From positions 64,516 to 128,515 of the forward strand of contig CAZUGA010000001.1 in the NCBI GenBank assembly GCA_964619885.1: a DNA stretch of 64,000 bases. Reading direction: 5' to 3'. This document shows, piece by piece, positions 2,366 through 16,987 of this stretch. Source of the stretch: an uncultured Methylococcaceae bacterium. Its GTDB lineage: Bacteria; Pseudomonadota; Gammaproteobacteria; Methylococcales; UBA1147. Under the pieces are notes generated by a model. It did no database searches, was not told the DNA's origin, and worked only from the letters and a program-made list of their open reading frames with translations. The position numbers and the translations under genes are program-made. Within the stretch, counting starts at the first letter, position 1; every line of letters begins with the position of its first letter.

Positions 2366-2883
2366 CAGCTGTTTCCTTATTGAATGTCGTGTATTGTTTA
2401 AACAAAAAGTGACCGTAATTGGATTGATTTTGACGCAATGTATGTCATACCGCGCCAATCTTGCCTAACGGTGCTGTTAATAAAACCGATCATAATAACA
2501 CTCAATTAATTGATCACCAAGGGTCGTGGTTTCGTTAACGTACCTTGCCACGCCCATATTCTTGGGTGTCTTGAACCAGCCTGTTCTGGGTTCTATATAG
2601 TGTCAATTAATTTAGCGGATATAAATATAGAGGGGGTTTAGGTTGACATTTACCAGAGCTAACGTGAGAATATTTTTAACAAAAATTTTTAGATACAATT
2701 CAGCTCGCCTCTGTTTGCTCTAATTTTGTCAGATTTGCGGGGCTGTGAAACAGCCGTTTCCGGTATGTGCGCATGTCTTCCTCGCTGTATTTTTGTATTG
2801 TGGGAATCTGAACAGTTTTACCCGGTATGCTGAATGGATTATTTTTTTATAACGATTTTTCAACAAGCAAAGAGTAGAAAACC

Positions 2884-3828: not shown

Positions 3829-3980
3829 ATTTTTTCTATTTACTAATTAAGTGTGATCGTCCTTCTTGCCTCACTTAGTCCTTCGTTAAGCGCCAGACGA
3901 TAGCGTCTGGTTAATTTTGCAGGGATTAGTGTTGAGGCGCGAGGCGTCACTAAATATTTTAACGATATTGGGAGGATGCT

Positions 3981-5159: not shown

Positions 5160-5170
5160 GGGGATTTATC

Positions 5171-6061
5171 ATGGCTATCATGGTTGACGAAACAACACGT
5201 ATTATCGTGCAGGGTTTTACCGGAAAAATCGGAACCTTTCACGCGCAGGATATGATGAACTACGGGTCCAACGTTGTTGGCGGCGTAACGCCGGGCAAAG
5301 GTGGCGAGACCCATTTGGGAAAACCGGTTTTCAATACGGTTAAAGATGCTGTAAATCAAGCCGGCGCAGAAGCGAGTATCATTTTTGTACCACCACCGTT
5401 CGCTGCTGATTCCATCATGGAAGCAGCCGAAGCAGGCATTAAGGTTTGCGTTGCGATTACCGATGGTATTCCTACACAAGATATGATGCGGGTCAAACGT
5501 TATATGCGCGGATTCAAAAAAGAGGATCGTATGCGCTTGACCGGGCCTAACTGTGCTGGAACGATCAGTCCGGAACGCGCTATGCTCGGTATTATGCCAG
5601 GACATATTTACCAGCGTGGTTCGGTTGGCGTGGTCGGTCGGTCCGGAACTCTTGGTTACGAGGCGGCGTCGCAGATGAAAGAACTAGGAATCGGCATTAC
5701 CACTTCGGTGGGAATTGGTGGAGATCCGATCAATGGTAGTTCGCACAAAGATGTTTTGGAACTGTTCGAACAAGACCCCGAAACCAAAGCGATTATGATG
5801 ATCGGTGAAATTGGTGGACCTCAGGAAGTTGAAGCGGGCCGCTTTGCGCAAGAGAATTTGACCAAGCCGGTTGTTGCGTATATCGCTGGACTGACAGCAC
5901 CTAAAGGTCGCCGTATGGGGCACGCCGGGGCTATCGTTTCATCGTCGGGCGAAACTGCGGCGGAAAAGGTTCAAATACTGCAGGAATGTGGTGTGACAAT
6001 TGCGCCAAATCCATCTGAATTGGGTTCAACCATGGCGAAAGTTTTGGCCGACGCGGGTTAA
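5171..6061 (+). CDS. mtkB: Malate thiokinase small (alpha, CoA-binding) subunit
   Basis: 296 aa. SucD-like (IVQGFTGK, GPNCAGTISP, the phosphohistidine loop MGHAGAIV). It starts 12 nt after mtkA. Confidence 0.85.
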   Translation: MAIMVDETTRIIVQGFTGKIGTFHAQDMMNYGSNVVGGVTPGKGGETHLGKPVFNTVKDAVNQAGAEASIIFVPPPFAADSIMEAAEAGIKVCVAITDGIPTQDMMRVKRYMRGFKKEDRMRLTGPNCAGTISPERAMLGIMPGHIYQRGSVGVVGRSGTLGYEAASQMKELGIGITTSVGIGGDPINGSSHKDVLELFEQDPETKAIMMIGEIGGPQEVEAGRFAQENLTKPVVAYIAGLTAPKGRRMGHAGAIVSSSGETAAEKVQILQECGVTIAPNPSELGSTMAKVLADAG

Positions 6062-6163
6062 CCAACGGAAATTCGGCGCTTATCGTGCCGTATTATCGAT
6101 ACTCCGTAATTATCGGTTGAAGGTTCCACGTCAATGTACTGCGTCGTAGTATATTGATCAATA

Positions 6164-6205
6164 GGCGGTAGCCGGGTTAAGCCCGCTATCGCCTGTTTTT
6201 GTTTT
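6164..6205 (+). terminator. Rho-independent terminator after mtkB
   Basis: GC-rich hairpin ggcggtagccggg / cccgctatcgcc (one bulge, one G-U pair) followed by tgtttttgtttt. Confidence 0.6.
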
Positions 6206-6224
6206 AGCAACGAGGTAATGTTTT

Positions 6225-6725
6225 ATGGCCGAGATCACGTTGAAGGGCAATGTAACGCATACTAGCGGGGAATTGCCCGACGTGGGTGTCGACGCGCCAG
6301 ACTTTGTATTGGTTAATGCTAAGCTGGCTGACGTCACATTGGCGATATTTGACGGTAAAAAGAAACTGCTGAATATCGTACCCAGTTTGGATACACCGAC
6401 TTGCGCAATTTCTACCCGTAAATTTAATGAAAAGGCCGGGCAGATTAATGATGCTGTGGTCCTGGTGGTTTCTGCAGATCTTCCATTCGCGCAGGGCCGC
6501 TTTTGTCAGGCCGAGGGATTAAAAAATGTAATCCCGTTATCGACCATGCGCTCGGGCGATTTTGCCAAAGATTATGGCGTACTTATTGAGGATGGTCCGT
6601 TAAAAGGATTAACCTGCCGCGCGGTTGTCGTGATCGATAGGGATAACCGAATTGGGTATACCCAAATGGTTAACGAAATCGCCGACGAGCCGGACTACGA
6701 GTCGGCGCTGGCAGCGCTAACATGA
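6225..6725 (+). CDS. tpx: Thiol peroxidase (atypical 2-Cys peroxiredoxin)
   Basis: 166 aa, collinear with recalled E. coli Tpx (PSLDTPTCA peroxidatic Cys, SADLPFAQGRFC, GPLKGLxxRAVVVID, EPDYE). Confidence 0.92.
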   Translation: MAEITLKGNVTHTSGELPDVGVDAPDFVLVNAKLADVTLAIFDGKKKLLNIVPSLDTPTCAISTRKFNEKAGQINDAVVLVVSADLPFAQGRFCQAEGLKNVIPLSTMRSGDFAKDYGVLIEDGPLKGLTCRAVVVIDRDNRIGYTQMVNEIADEPDYESALAALT

Positions 6726-6974
6726 TTGTTTTATTAGCTTGCACCGACTATCGAAAAACAACCAATTTAATTTGAATTCCCCCCGTTCTGCGATATTTTA
6801 GACCGGGTGCGAGAATAATATCCCTAAAAATTGATTGCCAATTGTGGCCGAAATTTTTATCATTGGCTGTTAAATTTTTTAATGCATCAGAATTAGATCG
6901 ATCAGCGGCAGATTTCGATCATCAATGGTTCTATGACGATTTTCAATTTCTATACAATAATTAAGGAGATATAA

Positions 6975-8198
6975 ATGTCCGTTTATCCACCGCTAGAAAT
7001 CCCAAATACCCTAGCAGCAGGTCCTGGGCCAGGCAATACTGACCCGAGAGTACTTGAGCGTTTTGCCCAAACAGGGGTTGCCGACCATATGCAAAAAGAT
7101 GTGCTTCGCGGTATGGTTGAAGCCAAAGAAATGCTGCGTACGGCGTTCGGAACCAAAAACAAATATACCTATGGTGTCGGCGGAACTGGATTTAGCGGAC
7201 TGGATTGCGTGTTCAGCATGATCCTTCCGGGCGATAAAGTCGTCGCATTTACCAACGGTACGTTCAGCGGTATTGATGGCCTGACCATTCGCATGAAAGC
7301 GTCGACTCGTGAAGAGTTGGCCGCCGATTCCCTAAACCCGCAACCGGCTAGTGTAACGATTGTCGATGTTCCCCATGGACAGTCCGTTTCTGGCGATATT
7401 GTCGATGCGGAACTAGGCAAGCACAAGCCGATGTGGGCGTTTATGGCCCATTGGGAAACCGGTAGTGGCCGCATCAATGATTTGAAAGGTTTCAATGACG
7501 CTTGCGCAAAACACGGTGTTATGGGAATCGTTGACGTTGTTTCCAGTTTGGGTGTCGCTGACTACGATATCGATGATTATCCAGCCATCGCTGCTTGGGC
7601 CTCTTGCCCACAGAAGGGTGTCTTGAGTTTGCCTCTAACGTACGCTCCGGTCAGCTTTACCGATCAAGCGATCGATGTTGTGCGCCAACGCGGTTGCTAC
7701 ACTTACGTTCACCATCCCATTTTGGAAGCACGCCACTGGGGTGTTGTCGATGGGGAAGACGTTGCTGCGGGTGGTTACCATCGTACCCATTCGGGTTACG
7801 CGATTGCAGCGTTCCACGAAGCGCTTCGTATTTTGTTAACCTACGGACGGGCGCAAAAGGCGGCGGATTACGAATACCATGAAAAAGCCCTAAGAAGCTC
7901 GGTGCAAGCCATGGGTTGCGAAGTCACGTCAAACATGACCAGTTTGGTTGTATTGAATTTACCTGGTGCGCTTGCCGGCAAAGAAAAAGATTTGGTCGGC
8001 GGATGCCGTGCCGAAGGTTTCGGTATTTGGCCTACCTTGTCCGAGCCGGTTCAGGTTCGTATCGGTATTTTGAATCAATTAACCGTTGAGGCAATCACCG
8101 ATATCGTTGGTCGTTTTGCCGACGCGATGTTGAAAATGGGCGCCCAATTCGACAAAGATCAAATTATGAATGATTTGAAAGCGTATTACGCTGGCTAA
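6975..8198 (+). CDS. Second class V (AGXT-family) aminotransferase; substrate unknown
   Basis: 407 aa with an aaggaga SD 6 nt upstream. Shows GPGPGN near the N-terminus and SCPQKGVLS as the candidate PLP-lysine motif. A distant paralogue of sgaA rather than a copy. Confidence 0.7.
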   Translation: MSVYPPLEIPNTLAAGPGPGNTDPRVLERFAQTGVADHMQKDVLRGMVEAKEMLRTAFGTKNKYTYGVGGTGFSGLDCVFSMILPGDKVVAFTNGTFSGIDGLTIRMKASTREELAADSLNPQPASVTIVDVPHGQSVSGDIVDAELGKHKPMWAFMAHWETGSGRINDLKGFNDACAKHGVMGIVDVVSSLGVADYDIDDYPAIAAWASCPQKGVLSLPLTYAPVSFTDQAIDVVRQRGCYTYVHHPILEARHWGVVDGEDVAAGGYHRTHSGYAIAAFHEALRILLTYGRAQKAADYEYHEKALRSSVQAMGCEVTSNMTSLVVLNLPGALAGKEKDLVGGCRAEGFGIWPTLSEPVQVRIGILNQLTVEAITDIVGRFADAMLKMGAQFDKDQIMNDLKAYYAG

Positions 8199-8212
8199 GT
8201 CGAGCCAAACTC

Positions 8213-8249
8213 AAAAAAAGCGCTGGCGCGAATGCCCAGCGCTTTTTTT
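8213..8249. terminator. Bidirectional Rho-independent terminator
   Basis: An A-run (8213-8219), then stem agcgctgg / ccagcgct with a 9-nt loop, then a 7-T run. It sits between the convergent aminotransferase and the UPF0104 gene. Confidence 0.75.
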
Positions 8250-8357
8250 GTGCTCTAAAGAAGTTAATCGTGATTGAGACTTGCCGAGTTTGGGTTTTGA
8301 AGTTGTCTTTTGGAAACAGGTTTAATGGCGAAAGACGCTTTGCTTGTCCACCCTACT

Positions 8358-9299
8358 TTATGTCGGTTTATCAACGGACAGGGGGCTGGTGCGTAATAGA
8401 TGGATACCGCCGGGTAATGCGGCGATTAGATTGAATGTGCCGTAAATGACTGAGATTGATACGATCATTTCCGGGCTCATGCCTTGGGCGCCTAAAATTA
8501 GCAGTGCGGCGGCTTCGCGGGTACCCCAGTCGGCGATGGCCAACGGGAGTAGGGTTGTTGCGGTCAGGACCAATGGTACGGCGATTAATACGCTAAAGGT
8601 GTCGTCCAATGCGCTCAATCCGATTGCCGCTAATAAGAAATTGAAGATAAGAGCTGCTTGGATAAGCAGAGAAACTGCATAATGCTTGGGCGATTTATGT
8701 GGGTTTAGGATGCGAAGTTGTTTTCGAAAACGCCGCAACAGCCATTTTCGGTATCGGTAAAGGAAGCTGCTGCCGACCACGATAATAGCCAGCGTATAGG
8801 CATGTACAGGGTTGGTCGAATCGGGTAGGTTTGAATTATTGCCGAAAAGGTAAATGGGAATCGCGGCTAACGCGATGGCAAACAATACCACCTGACCGGA
8901 GACGCGATCGAGTATTTGGCTGCTGATTATTTGGCTGGTTTTCGCTTTTCCGCGCAGGCTCTGGAATCGTGTAATTTCGGAGATGACAATGGTTGGACCA
9001 AATTGTCCCAGGAAGCCGGCCAACCAAACCGTCGCCAGCATCTTTTCAAAGGGTGGGCGGAAACCGAGTTGTGTTGAAATCAATTGCCAGCGCAGCGCGA
9101 ACAGCGCGAACAGCAAACAATTAACCGCGAGCATGATTGCACCTATTCGAAGGTCGAAATGGCTGATGAGCGAACTTATTTTCTGTGTATCCAGCCGGGT
9201 TAATATTATCGCCAACAGTGAAACGGTGATTAGCAGTCTAGACGACGGGCGATCTGTCAGGGCTTTAAACCGCTGTAATATGGACGCGGCTAGAGGCAT
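8358..9299 (-). CDS. Polytopic membrane protein, lysylphosphatidylglycerol-synthase-TM / UPF0104 (flippase-like) family
   Basis: About 313 aa from MPLAASILQRF. It has multiple hydrophobic spans and a WGTREAAA-type C-terminal motif I associate with this family. The start overlaps the GT4 stop by 10 nt; the tracked 54-codon upstream extension runs antisense-free through the GT4 3' end and is rejected. Confidence 0.6.
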   Translation of the reverse strand: MPLAASILQRFKALTDRPSSRLLITVSLLAIILTRLDTQKISSLISHFDLRIGAIMLAVNCLLFALFALRWQLISTQLGFRPPFEKMLATVWLAGFLGQFGPTIVISEITRFQSLRGKAKTSQIISSQILDRVSGQVVLFAIALAAIPIYLFGNNSNLPDSTNPVHAYTLAIIVVGSSFLYRYRKWLLRRFRKQLRILNPHKSPKHYAVSLLIQAALIFNFLLAAIGLSALDDTFSVLIAVPLVLTATTLLPLAIADWGTREAAALLILGAQGMSPEMIVSISVIYGTFNLIAALPGGIHLLRTSPLSVDKPT

Positions 9300-10345
9300 T
9301 GCCCGGCTCCCAATTCTTGAGCAACCCGGCAGGTAGACGCAAAATCGTCGAAACTTTGCGCCCAAGTGCGGCTGCGCGTTTCGCGTACCTTCGATTTGAT
9401 GGCTGCGAGGCGTTCTGGCGCATCGATCAATTCTGCGAGGTGTTGTGTGTATACATCGCATTGGCCCAACGGGACGAGAAAACCGTTTCGGCCATGATCG
9501 ATCAAACGCGAGGCTTCGCCAACCTGAGTCGTAATCACCGCGAGTCCGCTGGCCACAGCTTCTGCCATGGCCATGCCGTAGGATTCAAAGTAACTGGCGG
9601 ATAAAAAAATATCCATTTTTGCCATCAATTTGGCCAACGCCGCTTGGTTGGGCACTTGGGGTCTAAAAATGCGCTTAGCGAGGCCCAAATGATCTACGCG
9701 CGAAAGCAGGGTTTCGCTGTGCGGGGGATCGGTAACATCTTCACCCACCCAGTACCATTGCCAGTTTCGATCTTGCAGATTATTGAGTATTTCCAGTAAA
9801 AATTCATAACCTTTGGCCGGGACGTAGTTGGCCACGGTGATCAGCTGAATTTCAACCCCTGATTTTGCACTGGGTTTTTCGATGGTGGTGGTTTTAAATA
9901 CTGAACTGACCCCGGGTTCGCAAAGTCTTATTAATTTATCCGGGTAGCGGTGTTGCAGCAGTTCTCGCATTGTTTTCCCGGTGCAGATAATAAATTGCAT
10001 TGAATCGATAACGCGGTTTTCAAGACGACGGCTTGCGGTGCGGCCTTTTTCATCGATCTGCGGGTTGGTCGATGGAAGATAGTGTAGCAATAATCCAAGT
10101 CTTGCTGTGTGGGGTAAATTAGGCAACTGCTCAGGCGAAAATGCCAGTAGGCTATCGATTATTACCAGCTGATCAGGTGTCCTACTAATATTACCCAAAT
10201 TGCTGGACGTAAAACAATTAGTTGACAGCGGCACAGATTGTAGGGGGTAACCGCGATGTTCAGCTTGTTCGATGATGCACCGGTTATAGGTATGGCCGCC
10301 GCTGGGCGGTCCATCGAAGGGTGGGTGTATCAATAGCGTAGACAT
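9290..10345 (-). CDS. Glycosyltransferase, GT4 (GT-B, retaining) family
   Basis: 351 aa. The C-terminal half carries the E-x7-E region (ASYFESYGMAMAEAVASGLAVITT...GFLVP). Confidence 0.8.
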   Translation of the reverse strand: MSTLLIHPPFDGPPSGGHTYNRCIIEQAEHRGYPLQSVPLSTNCFTSSNLGNISRTPDQLVIIDSLLAFSPEQLPNLPHTARLGLLLHYLPSTNPQIDEKGRTASRRLENRVIDSMQFIICTGKTMRELLQHRYPDKLIRLCEPGVSSVFKTTTIEKPSAKSGVEIQLITVANYVPAKGYEFLLEILNNLQDRNWQWYWVGEDVTDPPHSETLLSRVDHLGLAKRIFRPQVPNQAALAKLMAKMDIFLSASYFESYGMAMAEAVASGLAVITTQVGEASRLIDHGRNGFLVPLGQCDVYTQHLAELIDAPERLAAIKSKVRETRSRTWAQSFDDFASTCRVAQELGAGQCL

Positions 10346-10399
10346 TCATGCATGATACCCGCTTTGGAAGATTTCTGAAGTTTGGGGTAGATTGCGGAT

Positions 10400-11089
10400 T
10401 TGATTGCCGAGCAACTGAAACTTGTCGCCTGGACTGAATGGCACGCCGCCTTTATTTGCATTGGTACTCTGGTTTCGGTCGTCGGGTTTTCGCCATTTTT
10501 TCTGGCGCTGTTGGCGGCGGGTTCGTTCGGATTACTGGTTTGGATATTCCGATTCGGCTGGTCCTCCACCAATGGATTTGGGTTGGCCAATGCTATTACA
10601 TTGACGCGACTGCTCGGAATTCTGGTTTTATTTACTATGCCACCGACTAGCGCCGAGGTCCTGATCCCCGTTGCGCTGGCATTGTTCGCGATGGATGGCT
10701 TCGATGGCTATGTTGCGAGGAAGCTTGGCTTAAGCTCGGAATTTGGCGAATATTTCGACAAAGAAGTGGATGCTTTTTTTATGTTGGTCTTATGTTTGAT
10801 GTTGTACAGTACCCGGTCGATCGGCGGATGGATTTTGATCCCGGGTTTGCTGCGTTATACCTTTGTGTTTTTTCTAAAGTGGGCTAAACCACCGCAATCC
10901 AAGGAACAGCGCAGTCGCGTGGGAATCAGCATTTACATTGTAACGATGTCCGCGTTAATCTTTTGTTTCGCACCGTTTCCGAAGTTGGTTGAGGCGTTGG
11001 CTTTCGTAGTCACATTGCTTTTGTGTGGCTCGTTTGCAGACACGATCTACCGATTGTATAGAACGCCGCGCGCTGGAATAAAATCTTGA
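10400..11089 (+). CDS. CDP-alcohol phosphatidyltransferase family protein
   Basis: 229 aa, membrane protein. Complete signature D-G-x2-A-R-x8-G-x3-D-x3-D in AMDGFDGYVARKLGLSSEFGEYFDKEVDAF. The TTG start is uncertain. Confidence 0.8.
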   Translation: MIAEQLKLVAWTEWHAAFICIGTLVSVVGFSPFFLALLAAGSFGLLVWIFRFGWSSTNGFGLANAITLTRLLGILVLFTMPPTSAEVLIPVALALFAMDGFDGYVARKLGLSSEFGEYFDKEVDAFFMLVLCLMLYSTRSIGGWILIPGLLRYTFVFFLKWAKPPQSKEQRSRVGISIYIVTMSALIFCFAPFPKLVEALAFVVTLLLCGSFADTIYRLYRTPRAGIKS

Positions 11090-11841
11090 ATTCAACCAAA
11101 CTTAGTACCCGTCAGGTCTCGGATATTGGCGGGATCAAAAACTTCTTCGATGATATCGCGGCAGATTATCAAGAGTTGCACGGCAAGCCCTCGGCATTGC
11201 TGGCCTATCGAATTTCGATCATTACAAGCCTTTTGGGTGCCGGCGGCGGTACACTGCTGGAAATCGGGTGTGGTACTGGAATTCATTTGTTTGCGCTTAC
11301 AGAACATTTCGATCAACTGATCGGTACCGATTTGTCACCGCGAATGATCGATACGGCAGAGGGCAGGCGGACGACGCATGCAAAGCGTGATGCGATAAAA
11401 TTTGTCGTAGATTCGGCGGAAAATTTGTGCAGCGTGGCTGCTGAACAGGTGGATTGCGTGCTCTGCGTCGGCGCCTTTGAACATATGTTGGACAAGGATC
11501 TCGTCTTGGCGCAGGTGAAACGCGTGTTGAAATCCGGCGGGGTTTTTATATGTCTCACCCCGAACGCGCATTATATTTGGTACCGATGGGTGGGCCCGTT
11601 GTTGGGCTGCGACACGCAACATTTAAGTACCGACCGTTTTTTAAGCCAGGCTGAAATACGGGATTTATTGGTGGCCGCCGATTTTGTCCCCAGGACATTA
11701 GGGTATTGGCGTTTTGTCCCGCGTGGCGACATGGCCCATTGGCTTGCATCATTGCTTGGTGTTGCGGATGTTGTCGGGCTAAGTCTAAATATATCGGGTT
11801 TACGCGGTGGGATTTATTTTAACGCGGTCAAACCGCGGTAG
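11086..11841 (+). CDS. Class I SAM-dependent methyltransferase
   Basis: 251 aa with motif I LLEIGCGTGIHL and an acidic loop GTDLS. The TTG start overlaps the upstream stop (TTGA), suggesting translational coupling. Confidence 0.75.
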   Translation: MNSTKLSTRQVSDIGGIKNFFDDIAADYQELHGKPSALLAYRISIITSLLGAGGGTLLEIGCGTGIHLFALTEHFDQLIGTDLSPRMIDTAEGRRTTHAKRDAIKFVVDSAENLCSVAAEQVDCVLCVGAFEHMLDKDLVLAQVKRVLKSGGVFICLTPNAHYIWYRWVGPLLGCDTQHLSTDRFLSQAEIRDLLVAADFVPRTLGYWRFVPRGDMAHWLASLLGVADVVGLSLNISGLRGGIYFNAVKPR

Positions 11842-11969
11842 TTGGCTAGACCGGCGTTGTCATCGGAATGGAAATCCCTCGCTTGATGTGTATGCCTCTA
11901 TAAAAAGTTTCTCCCATGCTCCGTATTTGGCCCGCTCATAAGGATTCTTGTGAAAACAAACTCCGCTGA

Positions 11970-12887
11970 TCATTTTTCCTTTTGATGGGAAATTCGGGCC
12001 AGAACGTCCATCTGGTGGATGATCAGTCCGAGCTGTTGCTGCTCGATGCGGTGCATGCGTTCCTGATACCAAGCTTGGAGTTTAGCCTGATCCAATAGCG
12101 GCAGATGCGTCGCTTCGCCGTGGATCATGTCCAGCAGGGCGGTGATACAGGTTTGGTCTTGATCCAAGTATTGGTCGTGGACTGGTGTAATATTCCAGTC
12201 CGAACTGCCGTAAGCAATGATATCGAATCCGTTGGCTTGCAGTGTTGTGACCAGCCTGCGGCCCGAATAAGCGCCGCCGGTGGCTTGCCCGTCAACGCCG
12301 CGATTCTCCATCGATTGATCGTAATGGTTCAGAATCTCGTGCTCGAATGCGAAATCTTGGTAAACCGGGAATAACGTGGTTTCACCGTCGTAATTCAGTG
12401 TACTGTAAAATAGCCCGCCTTCGACTAAGTTGTCGGCAATCAGTTTGACGGTTTGCATCAATGGGACGACATCCATGAATGCGTGCGCGGTAACTAGATC
12501 GAATGTGTTTTGCTTGTTGGGGATAGGTGATCTAATGTTTTGACAGATGTATTTCAAGGTTAGCGATTGCGTGTCCGAACGGGCGTGCATAAAATGGTCA
12601 CGATTTGCGATTGTGTAGCCTTGCTCTTGTAGCCGTTGTTGCGACGTCAGCGCAGCGCTTGCCAGGATGGTCTGATCACGGTCCAAACCCACCGCTTCAA
12701 TATTGGCAATCGAGAATGCTTCGACCAGGCGGTGAATCATAGCGCCGGTGCCGGTGCCGAGGTCAAGCCAGCGCAGGTGACTTCTGCTTTCCAGCGTCCT
12801 CAGTAGAGAATGATACGCGATTGGATTCAGGCTACGACTGTCCAGAGCGTATTTCGCGTTCAGATATTCGGTGAACGCGATCGGCAT
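11970..12887 (-). CDS. Class I SAM-dependent methyltransferase (second, unrelated copy)
   Basis: 305 aa with motif I WLDLGTGTGAMI and a post-I GLDRD. It is last in the minus-strand unit led by the 1227-aa gene. Confidence 0.7.
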   Translation of the reverse strand: MPIAFTEYLNAKYALDSRSLNPIAYHSLLRTLESRSHLRWLDLGTGTGAMIHRLVEAFSIANIEAVGLDRDQTILASAALTSQQRLQEQGYTIANRDHFMHARSDTQSLTLKYICQNIRSPIPNKQNTFDLVTAHAFMDVVPLMQTVKLIADNLVEGGLFYSTLNYDGETTLFPVYQDFAFEHEILNHYDQSMENRGVDGQATGGAYSGRRLVTTLQANGFDIIAYGSSDWNITPVHDQYLDQDQTCITALLDMIHGEATHLPLLDQAKLQAWYQERMHRIEQQQLGLIIHQMDVLARISHQKEK

Positions 12888-12911
12888 ATGCTTTTATCCT
12901 TAGGATCGGTG

Positions 12912-13286
12912 TTAGTTGAGTTGTCGATAAGCGGCCCAGTCGTTTTCGTTTTCCCAAAGCTTAATCGTAAGTGCATGCTGCTGCAGATTAAGGCGCTGTT
13001 GCATAGCGTCGTAAAAAATTTTGGCGAAACGTTCCAGGCTAGGATTGAGGTCCGCGAATGGCGCGAGCAGGTTTAGGGTTTGATCCTGAAACCCGGCAAT
13101 AATGTCCGATACCGCACTATCCACGTCGACGATATCAACCAAATAGCCGTGTTGATCCAGTTGCTCCGATTCGATCAATATTTCTACCCGATAATGATGA
13201 CTATGTTTTTGGTTTTCGCGGCCCCAGTCGCCGCCAATTAGATAGTGCTGGGCGATAAAATCACGCGTAATGGCTAATTGGTACAT
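12912..13286 (-). CDS. 6-pyruvoyl-tetrahydropterin synthase / QueD-family protein (atypical, Cys-less)
   Basis: 124 aa. N-terminal FIAQHYL and a His cluster KHSHHY in the family's size class and layout. No Cys upstream of the His pair. Confidence 0.6.
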   Translation of the reverse strand: MYQLAITRDFIAQHYLIGGDWGRENQKHSHHYRVEILIESEQLDQHGYLVDIVDVDSAVSDIIAGFQDQTLNLLAPFADLNPSLERFAKIFYDAMQQRLNLQQHALTIKLWENENDWAAYRQLN

Positions 13287-13303
13287 GGTTAAAAAGTTTT
13301 AAA

Positions 13304-16300
13304 TTAGTCTTGATTAACTGGTTCCGGAGGATGAGACGAAGACTTATAGGGTATAGATTTACTAATATCGCGGTGGGTTAATTCCAACGCGATGCCGTAC
13401 AGTGATTTCTCGCCGCGTCGATAGTCTTCGCTTAGCACTTGCAGCAGCGTTGGCTCGTCAGAAACGTTGGTTTTGTAGCGGGGAAAATCTCGCGATATGA
13501 TCGATGCCAGGGCTTTAATGCCTTCGGTGACGATAAATATTTCGGCGGATTCCTCGGACATGGAGCGGATTTTGAATATTATCCTAGCGAATGAAATCCG
13601 TCCGGTGCCATCGGTTCGAATGTCCCGATCATAATCCAGTTTATTGATTTTCGTATCCACCGCTATTTTGTGTTTGACCTTGTAGTCTTCCACCTTGATC
13701 ACTCGATTGAGATAGTCGTAGGTCAATTTGTTGGGCGGAAAGATGTTTTCGCCTTCAATCGCGGAAGATAAAGCTTCATAAGCCGGCCAAGCACCGCCCT
13801 TGAGCATGCGGCTAGCCAGAGATGATAATACCGAATTAAATTTAAGGTCGAAGTAATTGGTAATTTCCTCGGTGTGGAACCCGGTGCTGATAACATTACC
13901 GGAGACGCCCTTCAGTGCTTGCGCGATCATTTGCGTGCCATCGCTGGCAAATTCTTTGAGTTGTGGTTCTTTGTAATAGCCCATCTGTCCATTCCAGTAG
14001 ATCGATTTTGCGATAATGAATTGTTGCCGGTACAGATTGATGGTTTCGGGCCCGATGTCAACCACGCTATGGCCTTCCGGGATGGGTGCACTAAAATCGA
14101 TGTGTTTTCTATCGGTTGGATTCTCGATGTTATTAACGATCACCAGATCTTTGGGTAACATAAATTTATTGTCGTTTCCTTGATCGAATTTTAATAGTTT
14201 TTCGACCAGAGAAACGTCATCCGGCTCTATTTCCTCGTAGGTATCGCCATTGTTAAAGCCCTGTGCTTTGCGGAATATCAATGCGATATCCGCACCGAGT
14301 AAGATATTTTTGGTGATTTTGTTTTTTAGCAAGCGTTCCATGGAATCGAGCTTGAGGCCAATGTTTGGTCCCCCAATCACAGCGATTTCCTGGCCTTCAT
14401 CTCGAATCGACTCAACCCCCTTCATTTCGACTTCCAAGTTGTAACCCGCTGCTCGGGGTATATGTTGGGGTGCGGCGAAAACCGAAGTATATTTAAAATG
14501 CGCGATGCGGGGGTTGTCGGAAAAATAAACATCCACGCCATCAAATAATTTTTGCGCAAAGACCGGATCGTTGGCGGATTCTCCTTCTTCTTCCAGTAAG
14601 CTGTTCAGAAACAAAACATCGCCATTATTCATGGTCGAATGGATAAAGTCTTGAGCCGCCTGGGTTGTGTGGAATCCTTTTTCCAAATATATTGATCGAC
14701 CGTTGAGAGCTTTTTTTAGATAAGGTGCGGCGCTATTTCCGTGCCCTTTATCGTGCGATCCGACAATGATTTTTGCTTTGGCGTGACTCAGATCTATTAT
14801 AGTTTTTAGCGTAATCTCACGCCGTTTGTCGTCGTTCATATCAATTTCCAAGTCCGCTTGAACGAATGCTACCCTGCCGCTGTATTTCGACAAGTCCATG
14901 ATCGATTCGCGAAGTTTGGTCAATATATAAGAATCCTCTCCGGATTCAGTCGGCCAGTGGTCGAATATTTCGCCAAAAACGGATAAGCGATAAAGTGCTT
15001 CGGTAATATAGAATTTTTGCGCGCGATCGTGTAGTTCACGGCCGTAGATCAATCCGAATTCGCCAATGCCTTCCTGGTCGAAAATCTGTTGAGCCCAATC
15101 TAGATAACGATGTGCGCTTCTTGCATCTACATCGCGCCCGTCCAAAGCGGCGTGTACTACGACACGGCCGGCTTGTTTGTTTTTTGCAACTTTGAGGAAC
15201 TCCCTAAGGTGTTCGATGTACGAATGCACACCACCATCCGATAGAATGATACTTACGGTGATATGGTCACCCGCTTGAATCTGGTCAAAGGCTACGTGGG
15301 CGGCAAAACTTCCGTCTTCGATCGCGGCGGTAACGCGGCCAAAATCGGTCGCCACATTTTCTTTGGTTCGGCCGGCACCTATATGTGTATGACCGACTTC
15401 CGAGTTTCCAAATTGATCTAGCGGAAGCCCCACCGCGTCTTCACTGGCGCCGATTTGGGTCATCAAAAATCCGCTGATCAGAGGATCGATTTCGCTTCTT
15501 TCATCCGCTTCAAACTGAGTACAGCCTTCGCCTTGTTCCCAATGGGCGCCAAGCAAGCGTCTTAGTAACGGCGCGGCACCGCGTTTGATTGCAACACGGA
15601 CCGCATCGGAGTTGTCCGATTTATCCGGGTTTAAGCCCAGGCCATCGAGCACAACCAGCATTGCCTTTTGGTATTCGCCGGGAGCGGGCTTATGTTCCAT
15701 GCTGATCAACGGAACTGCGTTCATTTCTTGCGGTTGCTGGATTCCCATTGCGGTCAAAAGACTCGGCGCGACCCCGGCCAGGGTTTTGCTGCCTTTCGCG
15801 TTGAATCGAACCTTTTCGCTTGGGTCGGCAGGTACGTAGACAAAGGGGACTGGGTTAGTGGTGTGTTGAGTATGCGGTTCTCCGTCCTTCATCATTTGAT
15901 CAGAGTTGCCGTGATCGGCGACGATGATCATATTGACTTTTTGTTTTCGCGCCTGATTGCAAACCCGAAGCAGATTTTTGTCGACGTGCGCGATGGCGTT
16001 GACTGCGGCTTCTAAATCGCCGGTATGACCGACCATATCGGGATTCGCATAATTAACTACGAAAAAATGGTATTTTTGTTTCTTGAGCGCGTCGACAAGT
16101 TCTTCGGTGATTTCATAAGCGCTCATTTCCGGTTTCTCCGCGTAACTTATATCCACCTTCGGCGATGGGACCAATACGCGTTTTTCTCCATCAAAGGCAA
16201 CACTTCTGCCGCCGTTCAGGAATTCGGTGATGTGGCTGAATTTCTCTTTTTCCGCCACTCTGAATTGCTTCAATCCCAATTTTGACAAGGTCTCTCCGAT

Positions 16301-16987
16301 CGTGTTTTTGATTTCAATGTCGGGAAAGACGACGTGGGTTTGCTTTTTTTCGACAAACGGCCCTTTTTTATCCGGCCGCATATGAATAAATTTTAGATGC
16401 TTATAGTTCTTGACCGGAAAGATTAAGAAGTTTAATCGTTTACCGTACAGTGCCCAGTTTATCTGCCATCGTCTGTCTTTTCTGAAATGCAGATCTACGT
16501 ATATACCGTCACGGATGAATTCGGCCGATCCGTCCCGGTCATAGGTTGGGTAGCCTAGAATATTTTGGTCGGATATAACTTTGATGCCGGCGAAATGTTG
16601 CCGTTCGTAATCGAAATCCACCATCAACTTCAAAAAATCCACCTTCCGTCCTTCGAGGTCCAGAAAGGCTAGTTTTTTGTCGGGTGATATATGCGCGGTG
16701 GGATAGTAGCTTGCTTCAACCAAACATAAAAAAGACAAGGCTTGCTGATTATTGAGGAGCCACAGATCCTTGTTGTCCTTTGATTTGACCGGACTGCGCA
16801 AGTATACAGAGGCATTATCGCCCAATAAGCCCAGGCCTTCACGAACATTGGCGATATTCTGATAAATATCCTGCTGGCCTTTTCCTTTTGTTTTGATTCG
16901 GGCGAATGCATGAAACTGTCTAAAGTTGGATTCAAAGGACTTAATTTTGTCCTCGATCTTTTGCCGGTCAGGTTGTGAAATTGTCAT
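13304..16987 (-). CDS. 1227-aa multidomain protein: permuted cofactor-independent phosphoglycerate mutase (iPGM) module + divergent phosphoglycerate-kinase-like module + unassigned N- and C-terminal regions
   Basis: aa ~230-430 match the C-terminal half of iPGM (EKFSHITEFLNGGR, KPEMSAYE, NYANPDMVGHTG, VADHGN, HTTNPVP). aa ~441-668 match the N-terminal half (LVVLDGLG, GNSEVGHTHIGAGR, LSDGGVHS, ALDGRD). aa ~697-1075 are PGK-like (RVAFVQADL, GSHDKG, VIGGPNIGLKL, VDIGPET, YWNGQMGYY). See findings. Confidence 0.75.
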   Translation of the reverse strand: MTISQPDRQKIEDKIKSFESNFRQFHAFARIKTKGKGQQDIYQNIANVREGLGLLGDNASVYLRSPVKSKDNKDLWLLNNQQALSFLCLVEASYYPTAHISPDKKLAFLDLEGRKVDFLKLMVDFDYERQHFAGIKVISDQNILGYPTYDRDGSAEFIRDGIYVDLHFRKDRRWQINWALYGKRLNFLIFPVKNYKHLKFIHMRPDKKGPFVEKKQTHVVFPDIEIKNTIGETLSKLGLKQFRVAEKEKFSHITEFLNGGRSVAFDGEKRVLVPSPKVDISYAEKPEMSAYEITEELVDALKKQKYHFFVVNYANPDMVGHTGDLEAAVNAIAHVDKNLLRVCNQARKQKVNMIIVADHGNSDQMMKDGEPHTQHTTNPVPFVYVPADPSEKVRFNAKGSKTLAGVAPSLLTAMGIQQPQEMNAVPLISMEHKPAPGEYQKAMLVVLDGLGLNPDKSDNSDAVRVAIKRGAAPLLRRLLGAHWEQGEGCTQFEADERSEIDPLISGFLMTQIGASEDAVGLPLDQFGNSEVGHTHIGAGRTKENVATDFGRVTAAIEDGSFAAHVAFDQIQAGDHITVSIILSDGGVHSYIEHLREFLKVAKNKQAGRVVVHAALDGRDVDARSAHRYLDWAQQIFDQEGIGEFGLIYGRELHDRAQKFYITEALYRLSVFGEIFDHWPTESGEDSYILTKLRESIMDLSKYSGRVAFVQADLEIDMNDDKRREITLKTIIDLSHAKAKIIVGSHDKGHGNSAAPYLKKALNGRSIYLEKGFHTTQAAQDFIHSTMNNGDVLFLNSLLEEEGESANDPVFAQKLFDGVDVYFSDNPRIAHFKYTSVFAAPQHIPRAAGYNLEVEMKGVESIRDEGQEIAVIGGPNIGLKLDSMERLLKNKITKNILLGADIALIFRKAQGFNNGDTYEEIEPDDVSLVEKLLKFDQGNDNKFMLPKDLVIVNNIENPTDRKHIDFSAPIPEGHSVVDIGPETINLYRQQFIIAKSIYWNGQMGYYKEPQLKEFASDGTQMIAQALKGVSGNVISTGFHTEEITNYFDLKFNSVLSSLASRMLKGGAWPAYEALSSAIEGENIFPPNKLTYDYLNRVIKVEDYKVKHKIAVDTKINKLDYDRDIRTDGTGRISFARIIFKIRSMSEESAEIFIVTEGIKALASIISRDFPRYKTNVSDEPTLLQVLSEDYRRGEKSLYGIALELTHRDISKSIPYKSSSHPPEPVNQD

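What the first reader, a model, noticed from the sequence alone, without database searches (positions are those of the whole stretch)
8358..16987. Orphan seven-gene cluster next to the serine-cycle genes: likely synthesis of a modified phospho-head-group or glycoconjugate
Three tightly packed transcription units share this interval. Unit 1 (minus strand): the iPGM/PGK fusion, a PTPS/QueD-like protein and a 305-aa SAM methyltransferase, with 17- and 24-nt gaps. Unit 2 (plus strand): a CDP-alcohol phosphatidyltransferase and a 251-aa SAM methyltransferase joined by a TTGA overlap. Unit 3 (minus strand): a GT4 glycosyltransferase and a UPF0104 flippase-like membrane protein with a 10-nt overlap. 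Units 2 and 3 are divergent across only 54 bp. A CDP-alcohol transferase plus GT4 plus a flippase-like protein recalls phosphatidylinositol-mannoside-type or other phosphoglycolipid head-group pathways. The same enzyme family also builds phosphodiester-linked compatible solutes. Two methyltransferases, a pterin-synthase-fold protein and a phosphoglycerate-handling giant are not part of any pathway I can name. No cytidylyltransferase, acyltransferase or inositol-phosphate synthase is present, so the alcohol substrate is unknown; a glycerate- or phosphoglycerate-derived one is a possibility. A link to pterin (H4MPT-type) cofactor tailoring is an alternative, given the methylotroph context and the PTPS-like gene.
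Basis: inference. Interest (0 to 1): 0.8.

Follow-up and report, generated by a model that had tools for sequence, protein, structure and literature searches.

The report
Widespread uncharacterised lipid head-group gene cluster
Six of the seven genes belong to a gene set that recurs in bacteria of many phyla; I infer that it builds a sugar-bearing, methylated, GTP-derived (pterin-like) group and attaches it to a membrane phospholipid, a product nobody has identified, while the seventh, giant gene is only a lineage-specific neighbour.

Summary
In detail: seven intact ORFs with the stated coordinates, gaps, overlaps and domains.

Neighbourhood analysis covered 80 genome loci anchored on the CDP-alcohol transferase and 80 metagenome loci anchored on the PTPS-like gene. 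Six genes belong to one conserved system: PTPS-like, two methyltransferases, CDP-alcohol phosphatidyltransferase, GT4 and the flippase-like protein. The system occurs in Methylococcales, Burkholderiales, Desulfobacterota, Bacteroidota, Rhodothermales, Calditrichia, Fidelibacterota and Myxococcota.

Elsewhere the system also carries GTP cyclohydrolase II fused or adjacent to a RibD-type reductase, and an MDR dehydrogenase. Many loci also have an LtaS/EptA-like membrane enzyme. None of these is in this window.

The 1227-aa iPGM/PGK fusion occurs in none of the 160 loci and forms a single narrow family. Its 70% homologue lies in a different, C3-metabolism context, so it is a bystander.

The PTPS-like protein is closest to SCO6650 (PDB 3D7J, no function stated in the entry). 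The CDP-alcohol enzyme is closest to PGP synthase and the GT4 to MshA.

Best reading: a GTP-derived pterin- or diaminopyrimidine-type polyol is glycosylated, methylated, phosphatidylated and flipped. The product is inferred, not shown. No literature was found.

The parts
8358..9299 (-). Flippase-like polytopic membrane protein (LPG_synthase_TM / UPF0104), 313 aa. It is the last gene of the GT4 unit.
   Evidence: Pfam PF03706 at 9.3e-23. About 6 hydrophobic segments. The start at 9299 overlaps the GT4 stop by 10 nt. Window-type orthologues lie next to the CDP-alcohol transferase in 11 of 16 Methylococcales loci. A divergent PF03706 protein sits beside a second CDP-OH transferase subfamily in 11 PTPS-anchored metagenome loci.
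9290..10345 (-). GT4 (GT-B) glycosyltransferase, 351 aa, soluble.
   Evidence: Pfam Glycos_transf_1 / Glyco_trans_1_4. Present in 55/80 CDPOH-anchored loci and 30/37 PTPS-anchored loci of at least 6 kb, usually immediately downstream of the PTPS-like gene. The orthologue profile is closest to MshA 3C4Q (1.4e-37). BshA and tetrahydrobiopterin glucosyltransferases score lower.
10346..10399 (.). 54-bp divergent intergenic spacer between the GT4 and CDP-alcohol transferase units. A shared promoter region is presumed.
   Evidence: Coordinates. One weak sigma-70-like match on the minus strand at 10379-10352; it is not above the shuffle expectation. The same divergent arrangement occurs in L009-L012, L017, L023-L025, L027 and L029.
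10400..11089 (+). CDP-alcohol phosphatidyltransferase of a distinct subfamily, 229 aa, with 8 predicted helices.
   Evidence: PF01066 at 2.3e-17. All NCBIfam equivalogs are far below cut-off; the best is pgsA at 37.8 bits against 109. The catalytic motif is invariant in 26 homologues. The AlphaFold model (pLDDT 88) superposes best on S. aureus PGP synthase 7DRJ, TMt 0.70. It is fused to the MT251-type methyltransferase in 8 Burkholderiales loci and to a sulfatase-like enzyme in 7 loci.
11086..11841 (+). SAM methyltransferase (Methyltransf_11 type), 251 aa, translationally coupled to the CDP-alcohol transferase by a TTGA overlap.
   Evidence: Pfam and overlap. Present in 53/80 anchored loci at 38-57% identity. 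It forms a single ORF with the transferase in Burkholderiales.
11970..12887 (-). Divergent class-I SAM methyltransferase, 305 aa, downstream of the PTPS-like gene.
   Evidence: Weak Pfam hits. Orthologues at 26-56% identity lie in 35/80 and 23/37 loci, typically in the order PTPS-like, (GT4), MT305.
12912..13286 (-). T-fold PTPS/QueD-like protein of the SCO6650 type, 124 aa. It does not match the signatures of PTPS-I, PTPS-II or PTPS-III.
   Evidence: PF01242 at 1.8e-25, with all NCBIfam models below cut-off. The best PDB hit is SCO6650 3D7J, both by sequence (9.5e-6) and by predicted fold (TMq 0.86). The motif is ENQKHSH, not CxxxHGH, CxxxxxHGH or ExxHGH. His14, His28, His30 and the T-fold Glu85 are invariant. 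The family holds more than 4500 proteins.
13304..16987 (-). 1227-aa fusion of a circularly permuted cofactor-independent phosphoglycerate mutase with phosphoglycerate kinase. It is adjacent and, from the spacing alone, plausibly co-transcribed, but it is NOT part of the conserved system.
   Evidence: Domain map. It has 0 hits in 160 related loci. There is only one full-length representative in 1.84e9. It is followed by the PTPS-like gene only in homologues of at least 85% identity, not at 73% or 70%. It occupies the operon position held elsewhere by GCHII-RibD_C and MDR.

Best explanation
The interval holds two things.

(1) Six genes are a local, truncated copy of a conserved multi-phylum biosynthetic system. 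Its full form is:
- GTP cyclohydrolase II with a RibD_C reductase (no deaminase), an MDR dehydrogenase, a SCO6650-type T-fold protein, GT4 and MT305. I call this the GTP module.
- A CDP-alcohol phosphatidyltransferase, often coupled or fused to an MT251-type methyltransferase.
- Either an LPG_synthase_TM flippase-like protein or an LtaS/EptA-like 'sulfatase' membrane enzyme.

Proposed mechanism, all steps inferred:
- GTP is opened to 2,5-diamino-6-ribosylamino-pyrimidinone 5'-phosphate.
- The ribosyl is reduced to ribityl.
- The MDR re-oxidises a side-chain hydroxyl. At C2' this is formally the Amadori product and would close to 7,8-dihydroneopterin 3'-phosphate.
- The T-fold protein processes this 2-amino-4-oxo-pyrimidine or pterin polyol.
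- GT4 (MshA-like) glycosylates it.
- The PgsA-like transferase joins it to diacylglycerol through a phosphodiester, with CDP-diacylglycerol as donor.
- The two methyltransferases methylate it.
- The flippase-like protein moves the lipid to the outer leaflet. In other phyla the LtaS-like enzyme would pass the phospho-head-group to an envelope acceptor.

In this window the first three enzymes are missing. The T-fold enzyme must then use a precursor made elsewhere, either from copies of these genes elsewhere in the genome or from folate/H4MPT-pathway dihydroneopterin phosphates.

(2) The iPGM/PGK giant is a lineage-restricted central-carbon enzyme. It has come to sit at the head of the PTPS-like/MT305 operon.
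For: Shown:
- Co-location of orthologues. In 80 genome loci anchored on the transferase: GT4 55, MT251 53, PTPS-like 43, MDR 42, RibD_C 41, MT305 35, sulfatase-like 35, LPG_synthase_TM 12, giant 0.
- In 37 metagenome loci of at least 6 kb anchored on the PTPS-like gene: GT4 30, MDR 28, RibD_C 26, MT305 23, GCHII 15 free-standing plus up to 7 fused, CDP-OH transferase 18 (two subfamilies), LPG_synthase_TM about 12, giant 0.
- Rosetta-stone fusions: transferase-MT251 and transferase-sulfatase-like, and GCHII-RibD_C.
- In Methylotuvimicrobium sp. KM2, GCHII-RibD_C, MDR, PTPS-like and MT305 form a stand-alone operon. The same holds in one Methylococcales MAG, where the operon lies about 430 kb from the transferase/flippase pair on the same contig.
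- The GCHII domain passes the ribA cut-off. The reductase resembles the archaeal diaminopyrimidine reductase and has no deaminase.
- The T-fold protein is nearest to SCO6650 by sequence and by fold. It keeps three His and the substrate-anchoring Glu.
- The transferase model is nearest to PGP synthase and its best NCBIfam hit is pgsA.
- The GT4 profile is nearest to MshA, whose acceptor is a polyol phosphate.
- No conserved cytidylyltransferase appears in any locus. That favours the housekeeping donor CDP-diacylglycerol.
- The partners are membrane proteins: flippase-like, PEMT-like and sulfatase-like.
- All genes are under purifying selection.

Giant as bystander.
Against: - No product, lipid or metabolite is known, and no experiment is available.
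- The window lacks GCHII-RibD_C and MDR anywhere in its 64 kb, so the pathway here may be truncated, rewired or differently fed.
- Only about half of the PTPS-anchored loci carry a CDP-alcohol transferase. The core product may be a soluble glycoside and lipid attachment optional.
- The T-fold protein lacks the Cys/Asp/His triad of PTPS, so its chemistry is unknown.
- The step order, the MDR site of oxidation, the methyl acceptors and the sugar are guesses.
- The donor of the transferase is not established; the best PDB sequence hits include CDP-choline enzymes at similar weak E-values.
- The 17-nt spacing of the giant from the PTPS-like gene in three lineages leaves open a local functional tie.
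Confidence: 0.5

Rival explanations
1. One reading: all seven genes form one pathway. The iPGM/PGK giant supplies a glycerate- or phosphoglycerate-derived alcohol, which the CDP-alcohol transferase links into a head group.
For: The giant, the PTPS-like gene and MT305 lie on one strand with 17- and 24-nt gaps. The giant-PTPS adjacency is kept in homologues of 91% and 85% identity. The giant occupies the slot of the missing early enzymes.
Against: The giant is absent from all 160 loci that carry the other genes. It forms a single 50%-identity cluster among 1.84e9 representatives. The 73% and 70% homologues are not next to a PTPS-like gene; the 70% one lies by rhodanese-secB-gpsA, PEPCK and glycerate kinase. 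The partners of the cluster elsewhere are GTP-handling enzymes, not C3-handling ones.
Confidence: 0.07
2. Two unrelated pathways that are merely adjacent. One is a conventional phospholipid/glycolipid unit (PG-, PS- or PI-type synthase, glycolipid GT4, flippase, PmtA-like N-methyltransferase). The other is a separate pterin, queuosine or folate gene pair (PTPS-like + MT305).
For: In Methylotuvimicrobium the membrane block and the GTP operon are at separate loci. Half of the PTPS-anchored loci show no CDP-alcohol transferase within reach. MT251 has a weak PmtA hit.
Against: The two sets are adjacent in many phyla, and with two independently diverged transferase and flippase subfamilies. GT4 goes with the membrane block in some genomes and directly after the PTPS-like gene in most others, so it bridges the two sets. 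All lipid-synthase equivalogs are far below cut-off. The PTPS-like motif fits none of PTPS-I, II or III.
Confidence: 0.18
3. The product is a soluble phosphodiester, either a compatible solute of the di-myo-inositol-phosphate type or a cofactor side chain of the H4MPT/F420 type. It is not a lipid.
For: The CDP-alcohol family includes DIPP synthase. In Methylotuvimicrobium the block abuts the ectoine operon. The host is a methylotroph with pterin cofactors. GT4 relatives such as MshA and BshA act on soluble acceptors.
Against: No cytidylyltransferase is present to make a CDP-alcohol donor, either in the window or among the conserved neighbours. The DIPPS equivalog scores 15 bits against a cut-off of 580. 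The partners are a flippase-like protein, a PEMT-like membrane methyltransferase and LtaS/EptA-like enzymes that act on lipids. The cluster occurs in Bacteroidota, Calditrichia and Fidelibacterota, which are not H4MPT users as far as I know. The transferase fold is nearest to PGP synthase.
Confidence: 0.15
4. A decaying remnant. Having lost GCHII-RibD_C and MDR, the six genes in this lineage no longer make anything.
For: The early genes are absent from the 64-kb window. The five distal genes evolve faster than the flanks, at 73-78% against 91-97% identity to L009. One metagenome contig has a 1-nt indel in the PTPS-like gene.
Against: All ORFs are intact in four of five identical or related contigs. 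dN/dS is 0.10-0.30, which is clear purifying selection over dS of about 0.5-0.9. The catalytic motifs are intact. L012, another Methylococcaceae lineage, shows the same six-gene form.
Confidence: 0.07

Closest known systems
SCO6650 of Streptomyces coelicolor (PDB 3D7J), a PTPS homologue with no function stated in the entry
   Same: It is the best PDB match of the window's T-fold protein, both by sequence (E 9.5e-6) and by predicted structure (TMq 0.86). Like it, the window protein lacks the PTPS catalytic triad. From my own memory, unverified here: SCO6650 lies near the GTP cyclohydrolase II paralogue SCO6655, as the orthologues here lie near GCHII.
   Different: Identity is only 23%. SCO6650 and the Bacteroidota subgroup have H-G-A where the window subgroup keeps H-S-H, that is all three putative zinc histidines. 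I could not check the Streptomyces neighbourhood.
Pterin glycoside biosynthesis in cyanobacteria and Chlorobium (tetrahydrobiopterin glucosyl- or GlcNAc-transferases, PGT/BGluT)
   Same: A GTP-derived T-fold step followed by a GT4-type glycosyltransferase acting on a pterin side-chain hydroxyl. CtPGT is placed in a GT1/AviGT4-like group (PMC5683033). BH4 glucosyltransferases are detectable homologues of the cluster GT4 (about 3e-17).
   Different: The known pathway starts with GTP cyclohydrolase I and uses a canonical PTPS-II (CxxxxxHGH) and sepiapterin reductase. Here the entry is GCH II plus a RibD-type reductase plus an MDR, and the T-fold protein has another motif. MshA is a much closer relative of the GT4 than the PGTs are. 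No CDP-alcohol transferase, flippase or methyltransferases are known in pterin glycoside pathways.
Phosphatidylglycerophosphate synthase PgsA (for example S. aureus 7DRJ)
   Same: Best structural match of the transferase (TMt 0.70) and best NCBIfam hit. Same catalytic motif. The PgsA acceptor is a polyol phosphate.
   Different: The score is 37.8 bits against a cut-off of 109. There are two extra N-terminal helices carrying subfamily-invariant Trp11 and His15. The genomic partners are entirely different.
Mycobacterial PI/PIM locus (pgsA1 - acyltransferase - pimA) and the mycothiol enzyme MshA
   Same: A CDP-alcohol transferase next to a GT4 enzyme. MshA, a GlcNAc transferase acting on inositol phosphate, is the nearest solved relative of the GT4.
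   Different: The PIP synthase equivalog scores 16 bits against 170, and PimA is only a weak match. There is no acyltransferase and no inositol-phosphate synthase. There are added methyltransferases, a T-fold protein and a flippase-like protein.
MprF flippase domain, HpnL and other UPF0104 proteins; LtaS/EptA/OpgB phospho-head-group transferases
   Same: The window's last gene is a stand-alone PF03706 domain, like the flippase half of MprF. In other phyla its place is taken by a sulfatase-superfamily membrane enzyme. I compare that enzyme to the group that transfers phospho-alcohol head groups from phospholipids to envelope acceptors; Pfam shows only a sulfatase domain.
   Different: There is no aminoacyl-PG synthase domain (MprF equivalog 17.9 bits against 600). 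The sulfatase-like protein has no NCBIfam assignment and is absent from the window.
Early riboflavin / toxoflavin steps (GTP cyclohydrolase II + RibD)
   Same: The relatives' first gene is a bona fide ribA-type GCHII joined to a RibD_C reductase.
   Different: There is no deaminase domain and no lumazine or riboflavin synthase. These genes are not in the window at all.

Membership tests
Canonical 6-pyruvoyl-tetrahydropterin synthase (PTPS-II) | Signature CxxxxxHGH and the Cys/Asp/His catalytic triad | tested here: not met
   The motif is G-R-E-N-Q-K-H-S-H with no Cys. In the alignment to rat PTPS 1B66, Asp88/His89 align to Gln/Asp.
QueD (PTPS-I) / PTPS-III | Signature CxxxHGH (QueD) or ExxHGH (PTPS-III); NCBIfam QueD cut-off 89.25 bits | tested here: not met
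   Glu sits four, not three, residues before the first His, and there is no Cys. The QueD model scores 46.1 bits, below cut-off.
T-fold pterin/purine-binding superfamily | Beta-alpha-alpha-beta T-fold with a conserved Glu that anchors the 2-amino-4-oxo-pyrimidine ring | tested here: met
   The model has pLDDT 89.5. Its top structural hits are all PTPS/QueD/SCO6650 at TM 0.74-0.86. Glu85 is invariant in 44 and in 25 homologues.
CDP-alcohol phosphatidyltransferase family | Motif D(x)2DG(x)2AR(x)8G(x)3D(x)3D on a polytopic membrane protein | tested here: met
   D99..D102 G103..A106 R107..G116..D120..D124 are invariant in 26 sequences. PF01066 scores 64 bits against 22. The model has 8 helices.
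PgsA / PssA / PIP synthase / cardiolipin synthase ClsA / DIPP synthase (named equivalogs) | Score above the NCBIfam curated cut-off | tested here: not met
   Scores against cut-offs: pgsA 37.8/109, pssA 26.5/107, PIPSynth 16/170, ClsA 26.7/240, IPCT-DIPPS 15.3/580.
DIP-type compatible-solute pathway | A cytidylyltransferase that makes the CDP-alcohol donor, fused or adjacent | tested here: not met
   There is no nucleotidyltransferase domain in the seven proteins. None appears among gene families conserved in the 117 loci analysed.
PI/PIM pathway | PIP synthase + PimA + acyltransferase, with an inositol-phosphate synthase in the genome | tested here: not met
   The equivalogs are below cut-off. 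PimA matches at E 2e-3 with the single sequence. The cluster has no acyltransferase. The rest of the genome was not available.
MprF | Flippase TM domain plus a C-terminal aminoacyl-PG synthase domain | tested here: not met
   Only PF03706 is present. bifunc_MprF scores 17.9 bits against 600.
Pteridine glycosyltransferase (BGluT/PGT) | GT-B enzyme closely related to the characterised BH4 glycosyltransferases, acting on a pterin side chain | tested here: inconclusive
   Homology is detectable (9V0L at 2.7e-5 with the single sequence; 5ZE7/9V0L at about 3e-17 with the profile). MshA, SPS, HepE-like and BshA enzymes rank higher. The acceptor is not testable with these tools.
Conserved GCHII-RibD_C / MDR / SCO6650-type / GT4 / MT305 / CDP-OH transferase system (defined here) | Co-located orthologues of these families | tested here: inconclusive
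   The window has PTPS-like, GT4, MT305, transferase, MT251 and flippase-like genes (met). It lacks GCHII-RibD_C and MDR within 64 kb (not met locally). The rest of the genome is unavailable.
Cofactor-independent phosphoglycerate mutase and PGK (giant ORF) | iPGM catalytic Ser in GNSEVGH and metal ligands; PGK fold | tested here: met
   The alignment to 1EJJ shows GNSEVGH, the D..H of 'NPDMVGH', 'ADHGN' and 'HT' conserved, but in circularly permuted order. PGK matches 1VPE at 4.5e-29. Activity was not tested.

The most novel reading that the evidence does not exclude
The conserved system makes a previously unknown class of membrane lipid. A GTP-derived pterin- or diaminopyrimidine-ribityl glycoside, methylated, would be bound through a phosphodiester to diacylglycerol and displayed on the outer face of the inner membrane. 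In phyla with the LtaS-like enzyme it would be transferred onto an envelope polymer. The route would also include a GTP cyclohydrolase I-independent path to a neopterin-type pterin: GCH II, then RibD_C reduction, then MDR re-oxidation, then ring closure.
Probability: 0.25. Interest if true: 0.85.

Novelty: new variant of a known kind. Interest (0 to 1): 0.62.

Why it matters
If the reading holds, a gene set present in more than 94 species-level genomes would define an unrecognised branch of GTP/pterin metabolism. The carriers come from at least eight major lineages and include cultivated, genetically tractable methanotrophs such as Methylotuvimicrobium buryatense 5G. The branch would end in the membrane.

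It would give a function to the SCO6650-type PTPS homologues. This family holds more than 4500 proteins, and its solved structure was released in 2008 without a stated function.

It would also assign roles to a distinct CDP-alcohol transferase subfamily and to stand-alone UPF0104 flippase-like proteins.

Periplasmic or membrane-bound pterins have been proposed as signals and redox or UV-active molecules, but to my knowledge no anchoring mechanism has been described.

The hypothesis is directly testable with two deletions and one lipidomics run.

Separately, the analysis removes the iPGM/PGK giant from the pathway and flags it as a curiosity of its own.

Tried and rejected
1. A genome scan with the giant alone found nothing. 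The word-indexed search gave only four full-length homologues. The exhaustive HMMER scan confirmed a single family.

2. My first impression from three loci was that only the four genes LPGTM-GT4 and CDPOH-MT251 are conserved. The 80-locus analysis overturned this.

3. Ten literature searches found no paper describing the gene set. The terms included SCO6650, SCO6655, GCH II + 6-pyruvoyl + CDP-alcohol, pterin + CDP-diacylglycerol, and GCH II + glycosyltransferase + gene cluster. The SCO6650 structure paper could not be retrieved by DOI.

4. An Rfam scan of the window and four related loci found no riboswitch that would name a ligand.

5. The promoter and terminator scans were at or below shuffle expectation and gave no operon boundaries.

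6. PDB sequence searches for the two methyltransferases gave only generic class-I hits. Structure prediction for MT305 with an orthologue alignment was not possible under the tool's input restriction.

7. An attempt to name the organism through cluster member names returned no names.

8. H4MPT tailoring was rejected because of the taxonomic spread. PIM-, DIP- and MprF-type assignments were rejected on the membership tests.

Full report
1. OBSERVATION

Pfam and NCBIfam confirm each assignment:
- LPG_synthase_TM, 8358-9299, minus strand.
- GT4, 9290-10345, minus strand.
- CDP-OH_P_transf, 10400-11089, plus strand.
- Methyltransf_11 protein, 11086-11841, plus strand.
- A weakly matching class-I methyltransferase, 11970-12887, minus strand.
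- A PTPS-family protein, 12912-13286, minus strand.
- A 1227-aa protein with iPGM and PGK domains, 13304-16987, minus strand.

The 10-nt GT4/flippase overlap, the 54-bp divergent spacer, the TTGA overlap and the 17- and 24-nt gaps are all as stated.

The flanks are serine-cycle genes, a peroxiredoxin and a 407-aa ORF without family on one side. On the other side are a DEAD-box helicase and RNase E. Further along lie a PQQ dehydrogenase and formate dehydrogenase genes. That fits a methylotroph.

The DNA is at least 99.96% identical to contigs from four marine metagenomes.

2. DO THE SEVEN GENES TRAVEL TOGETHER?

The giant:
- The word-indexed search finds only four full-length homologues, at 100, 85, 73 and 70% identity.
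- An exhaustive HMMER scan of 1.84 billion cluster representatives finds one full-length representative. Everything else is an ordinary iPGM of about 500 aa.
- In the 91% and 85% homologues the giant is followed by the PTPS-like gene, as here.
- In the 73% homologue the next gene is an unrelated convergent ORF.
- In the 70% homologue the giant is followed by rhodanese, secB and gpsA, with PEPCK and glycerate kinase a few kb on.

The CDP-alcohol transferase:
- It has a family of 43-78% identical homologues, mostly in Methylococcales, with the catalytic motif invariant.
- A scan of one genome per species with this alignment returned 80 loci out of 94 confirmed. They come from Methylococcales (including Methylotuvimicrobium buryatense 5G, KM1 and wino1), Burkholderiales (Limnobacter, Zeimonas), Thermodesulfobacteriota, Rhodothermales, other Bacteroidota, Calditrichia, Fidelibacterota, Zixibacteria and Myxococcota.

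I searched the seven window proteins against these loci with tblastn and clustered all neighbouring ORFs. Within 7 kb of the transferase the counts are:
- GT4 in 55 loci.
- MT251-type methyltransferase in 53.
- PTPS-like in 43.
- MT305 in 35.
- LPG_synthase_TM in 12, of which 11 are Methylococcales.
- The giant in none.

Identities to the window proteins are high for such distances. The PTPS-like protein is 52-72% identical in proteobacteria.

3. GENES THE WINDOW LACKS

The same clustering exposed four further conserved families:
- A RibD_C reductase in 41 loci. It has no deaminase domain. In Methylococcales it is fused to a GTP cyclohydrolase II that passes the ribA cut-off.
- An MDR zinc-type dehydrogenase in 42 loci, nearest to BchC, Tdh and inosose dehydrogenases.
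- A membrane protein with a sulfatase-superfamily domain in 35 loci. I compare it to LtaS/EptA-type enzymes.
- A PEMT-like membrane methyltransferase in 9 Bacteroidota loci.

Single-ORF fusions join the transferase to MT251 in 8 Burkholderiales loci. They join it to the sulfatase-like enzyme in 7 Rhodothermales and Myxococcota loci.

None of the extra families is present anywhere in the 64-kb window.

In Methylococcales loci L024, L025 and L052 the order is GCHII-RibD_C, MDR, PTPS-like, MT305 (L052 is arranged slightly differently). In the window the giant sits exactly where the first two stand.

4. RECIPROCAL TEST

The PTPS-like family is large: 4595 proteins at E of 1e-8 or better, with 60-70% identity across orders.

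In Methylotuvimicrobium sp. KM2 the genes GCHII-RibD_C, MDR, PTPS-like and MT305 form a free-standing four-gene operon. The same holds in a Methylococcales MAG. In the MAG the operon lies about 430 kb from the transferase/flippase pair on the same contig.

A metagenome scan anchored on the PTPS-like alignment gave 80 further loci. Among the 37 loci of at least 6 kb:
- GT4 in 30.
- MDR in 28.
- RibD_C in 26.
- MT305 in 23.
- GCHII in 15 as a separate gene, plus up to 7 fused.
- A CDP-alcohol transferase in 18: 6 of the window type and 12 of a longer subfamily, verified as PF01066.
- An LPG_synthase_TM protein in about 12, of which 11 belong to a divergent subfamily verified as PF03706.
- The sulfatase-like enzyme in 5.
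- The giant in none.

Among the 17 loci with at least 4 kb on both sides, GT4 is present in 16.

The commonest order is (CDP-OH transferase, flippase-like, DUF7475), GCHII, RibD_C, MDR, PTPS-like, GT4, MT305.

Two independently diverged transferase and flippase subfamilies therefore associate with the same GTP module. GT4 bridges the two gene sets.

The six small genes of the window are thus parts of one conserved system. The giant is not.

5. WHAT THE PARTS LOOK LIKE

The T-fold protein:
- Its best PDB match is SCO6650 (3D7J), by sequence and by predicted fold (pLDDT 89.5, TMq 0.86).
- Its motif ENQKHSH fits none of the signatures published for PTPS-I, II or III (PMC5041015).
- The PTPS triad is replaced.
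- Three histidines and the substrate-anchoring glutamate are invariant.
- A Bacteroidota subgroup shares the H-G-A variant of SCO6650.

The transferase:
- The model (pLDDT 88) superposes best on S. aureus PGP synthase.
- Every named lipid-synthase equivalog is far below cut-off.

The GT4:
- The orthologue profile is nearest to MshA (1.4e-37).
- Tetrahydrobiopterin glucosyltransferases follow at about 3e-17.

Other points:
- The transferase and the flippase-like protein are polytopic. The rest are soluble.
- All genes are under purifying selection against L009: dN/dS 0.17-0.30 for the five distal genes, 0.10 for PTPS-like and 0.08 for the giant.
- No riboswitch was found.

6. MECHANISM

Shown:
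- The gene association.
- The fusions.
- The family and fold assignments.

Following from established family knowledge:
- GCH II yields 2,5-diamino-6-ribosylamino-4(3H)-pyrimidinone 5'-phosphate.
- A deaminase-less RibD_C reduces the ribosyl to ribityl, as in archaea and fungi.
- CDP-alcohol transferases form phosphodiesters with release of CMP.
- The flippase half of MprF is a PF03706 domain.
- LtaS/EptA/OpgB enzymes transfer phospho-head-groups from phospholipids.

Inferred:
- The MDR re-oxidises a ribityl hydroxyl. If this is at C2', the product is the same amino-ketose that GTP cyclohydrolase I makes by Amadori rearrangement, and it would cyclise to 7,8-dihydroneopterin 3'-phosphate.
- The T-fold protein processes this compound.
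- GT4 glycosylates a side-chain hydroxyl.
- The PgsA-like transferase attaches phosphatidyl from CDP-diacylglycerol. This donor is favoured because no cytidylyltransferase is ever linked to the cluster.
- The two methyltransferases decorate the head group.
- The flippase-like protein exposes the lipid on the outer leaflet.

In the window the early enzymes are missing. The precursor must then come from elsewhere in the genome or from the folate/H4MPT dihydroneopterin pool.

My confidence in each layer:
- About 0.9 that the six genes belong to this conserved system and the giant does not.
- About 0.55 that the end product is a phospholipid.
- About 0.3 that the head group is pterin-like.

7. THE GIANT

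It is a circularly permuted iPGM followed by PGK:
- Residues 163-428 match iPGM 255-509.
- Residues 507-687 match iPGM 40-224.
- The catalytic Ser motif and the metal ligands are kept.
- PGK spans residues 693-1050.
- Three segments have no assignment: 1-160, 430-505 and 1050-1227.

PGK and PGM catalyse consecutive steps. The gene lies near serine-cycle genes here and near glycerate kinase and PEPCK in L001. A role in central C3 metabolism is therefore the economical reading (inference). It deserves its own study.

8. COMPARISON WITH KNOWN SYSTEMS, AND NOVELTY

PIM, DIP, MprF, canonical BH4, queuosine and folate assignments fail the membership tests.

The nearest analogies are:
- Pterin glycoside synthesis (a T-fold step plus a GT4-type transferase).
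- PGP synthase.
- MshA.
- The SCO6650 orphan.

Ten full-text searches found no description of the gene set. The library is incomplete, so this is weak evidence of novelty.

I rate the system as a new variant of known kinds of pathway, built from known enzyme families with an unknown product. There is about a one-in-four chance that it defines a new lipid class.

Interest is moderate to high. The finding is real, widespread and testable. This particular window, however, holds a truncated copy, and the headline 'seven-gene pathway with a phosphoglycerate giant' does not stand.

Noticed in passing
window 13304-16987 (-): The 1227-aa protein is a circularly permuted iPGM (C-terminal half first, then N-terminal half) fused to PGK. 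Three segments are unassigned (1-160, 430-505, 1050-1227). It forms a single 50%-identity cluster among 1.84e9 representatives and has dN/dS 0.08. Stand-alone permuted iPGMs of about 510 aa also exist (P0229, P0241, P0298).
   Followed up: partly
L001 78-11047: The 70% homologue of the giant is followed by rhodanese, secB and gpsA, with GTP-PEPCK and glycerate kinase within 7 kb. This is a C3-metabolism context rather than the lipid/pterin cluster.
   Followed up: partly
window 6975-8198 (+) and 8215-8247: A 407-aa ORF with no Pfam hit. It is 97% identical in L009 with dN/dS 0.026, which is as constrained as malate thiokinase. It is followed by a GC-rich hairpin with T and A runs on either side, which looks like a bidirectional terminator shared with the convergent flippase-like gene.
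   Followed up: no
L004 7204-7601 (JGI Ga0114932_10000129): One otherwise identical metagenome contig has a single-base indel that splits the PTPS-like gene. This could be a sequencing error or a strain variant.
   Followed up: partly
L010 / L027 / L029 (Methylotuvimicrobium), about 2500-11500: In Methylotuvimicrobium the flippase-GT4 / transferase-MT251 block lies directly beside the ectoine operon (MarR-type regulator, ectA-like, ectB-like and ectC-like genes, aspartokinase). This hints at a link to osmoadaptation, or it is coincidence.
   Followed up: no
L015, L035, L039, L041, L042 (about 9980-11500); L040, L044, L059 (about 9700-12500): Single-ORF fusions occur: CDP-alcohol transferase with the MT251-type methyltransferase in Burkholderiales, and CDP-alcohol transferase with a sulfatase-superfamily membrane enzyme in Rhodothermales and Myxococcota.
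   Followed up: partly
L171 4187-4540; L169 5645-5983; L168 292-633; L111 3306-3647: A small DUF7475 membrane protein recurs just upstream of GTP cyclohydrolase II in 8 metagenome versions of the cluster.
   Followed up: no
L012 12855-13673 (-): In the closest non-congeneric Methylococcaceae version, the gene next to the PTPS-like gene is a ceramidase-family membrane protein, followed by an MFS transporter and an epimerase-family protein. The early GTP enzymes are missing locally there too.
   Followed up: no
window 8358-12887 versus L009: The five distal cluster genes are 73-78% identical to L009. The giant, the PTPS-like gene and the flanking genes are 86-97% identical at similar dS. This points to relaxed constraint or faster adaptive turnover of the membrane part.
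   Followed up: partly
L094 13774-13994 and 16799-17077: Two group II intron D1-D4 matches and a reverse transcriptase lie next to the stand-alone GTP-module operon of a Methylococcales MAG.
   Followed up: no
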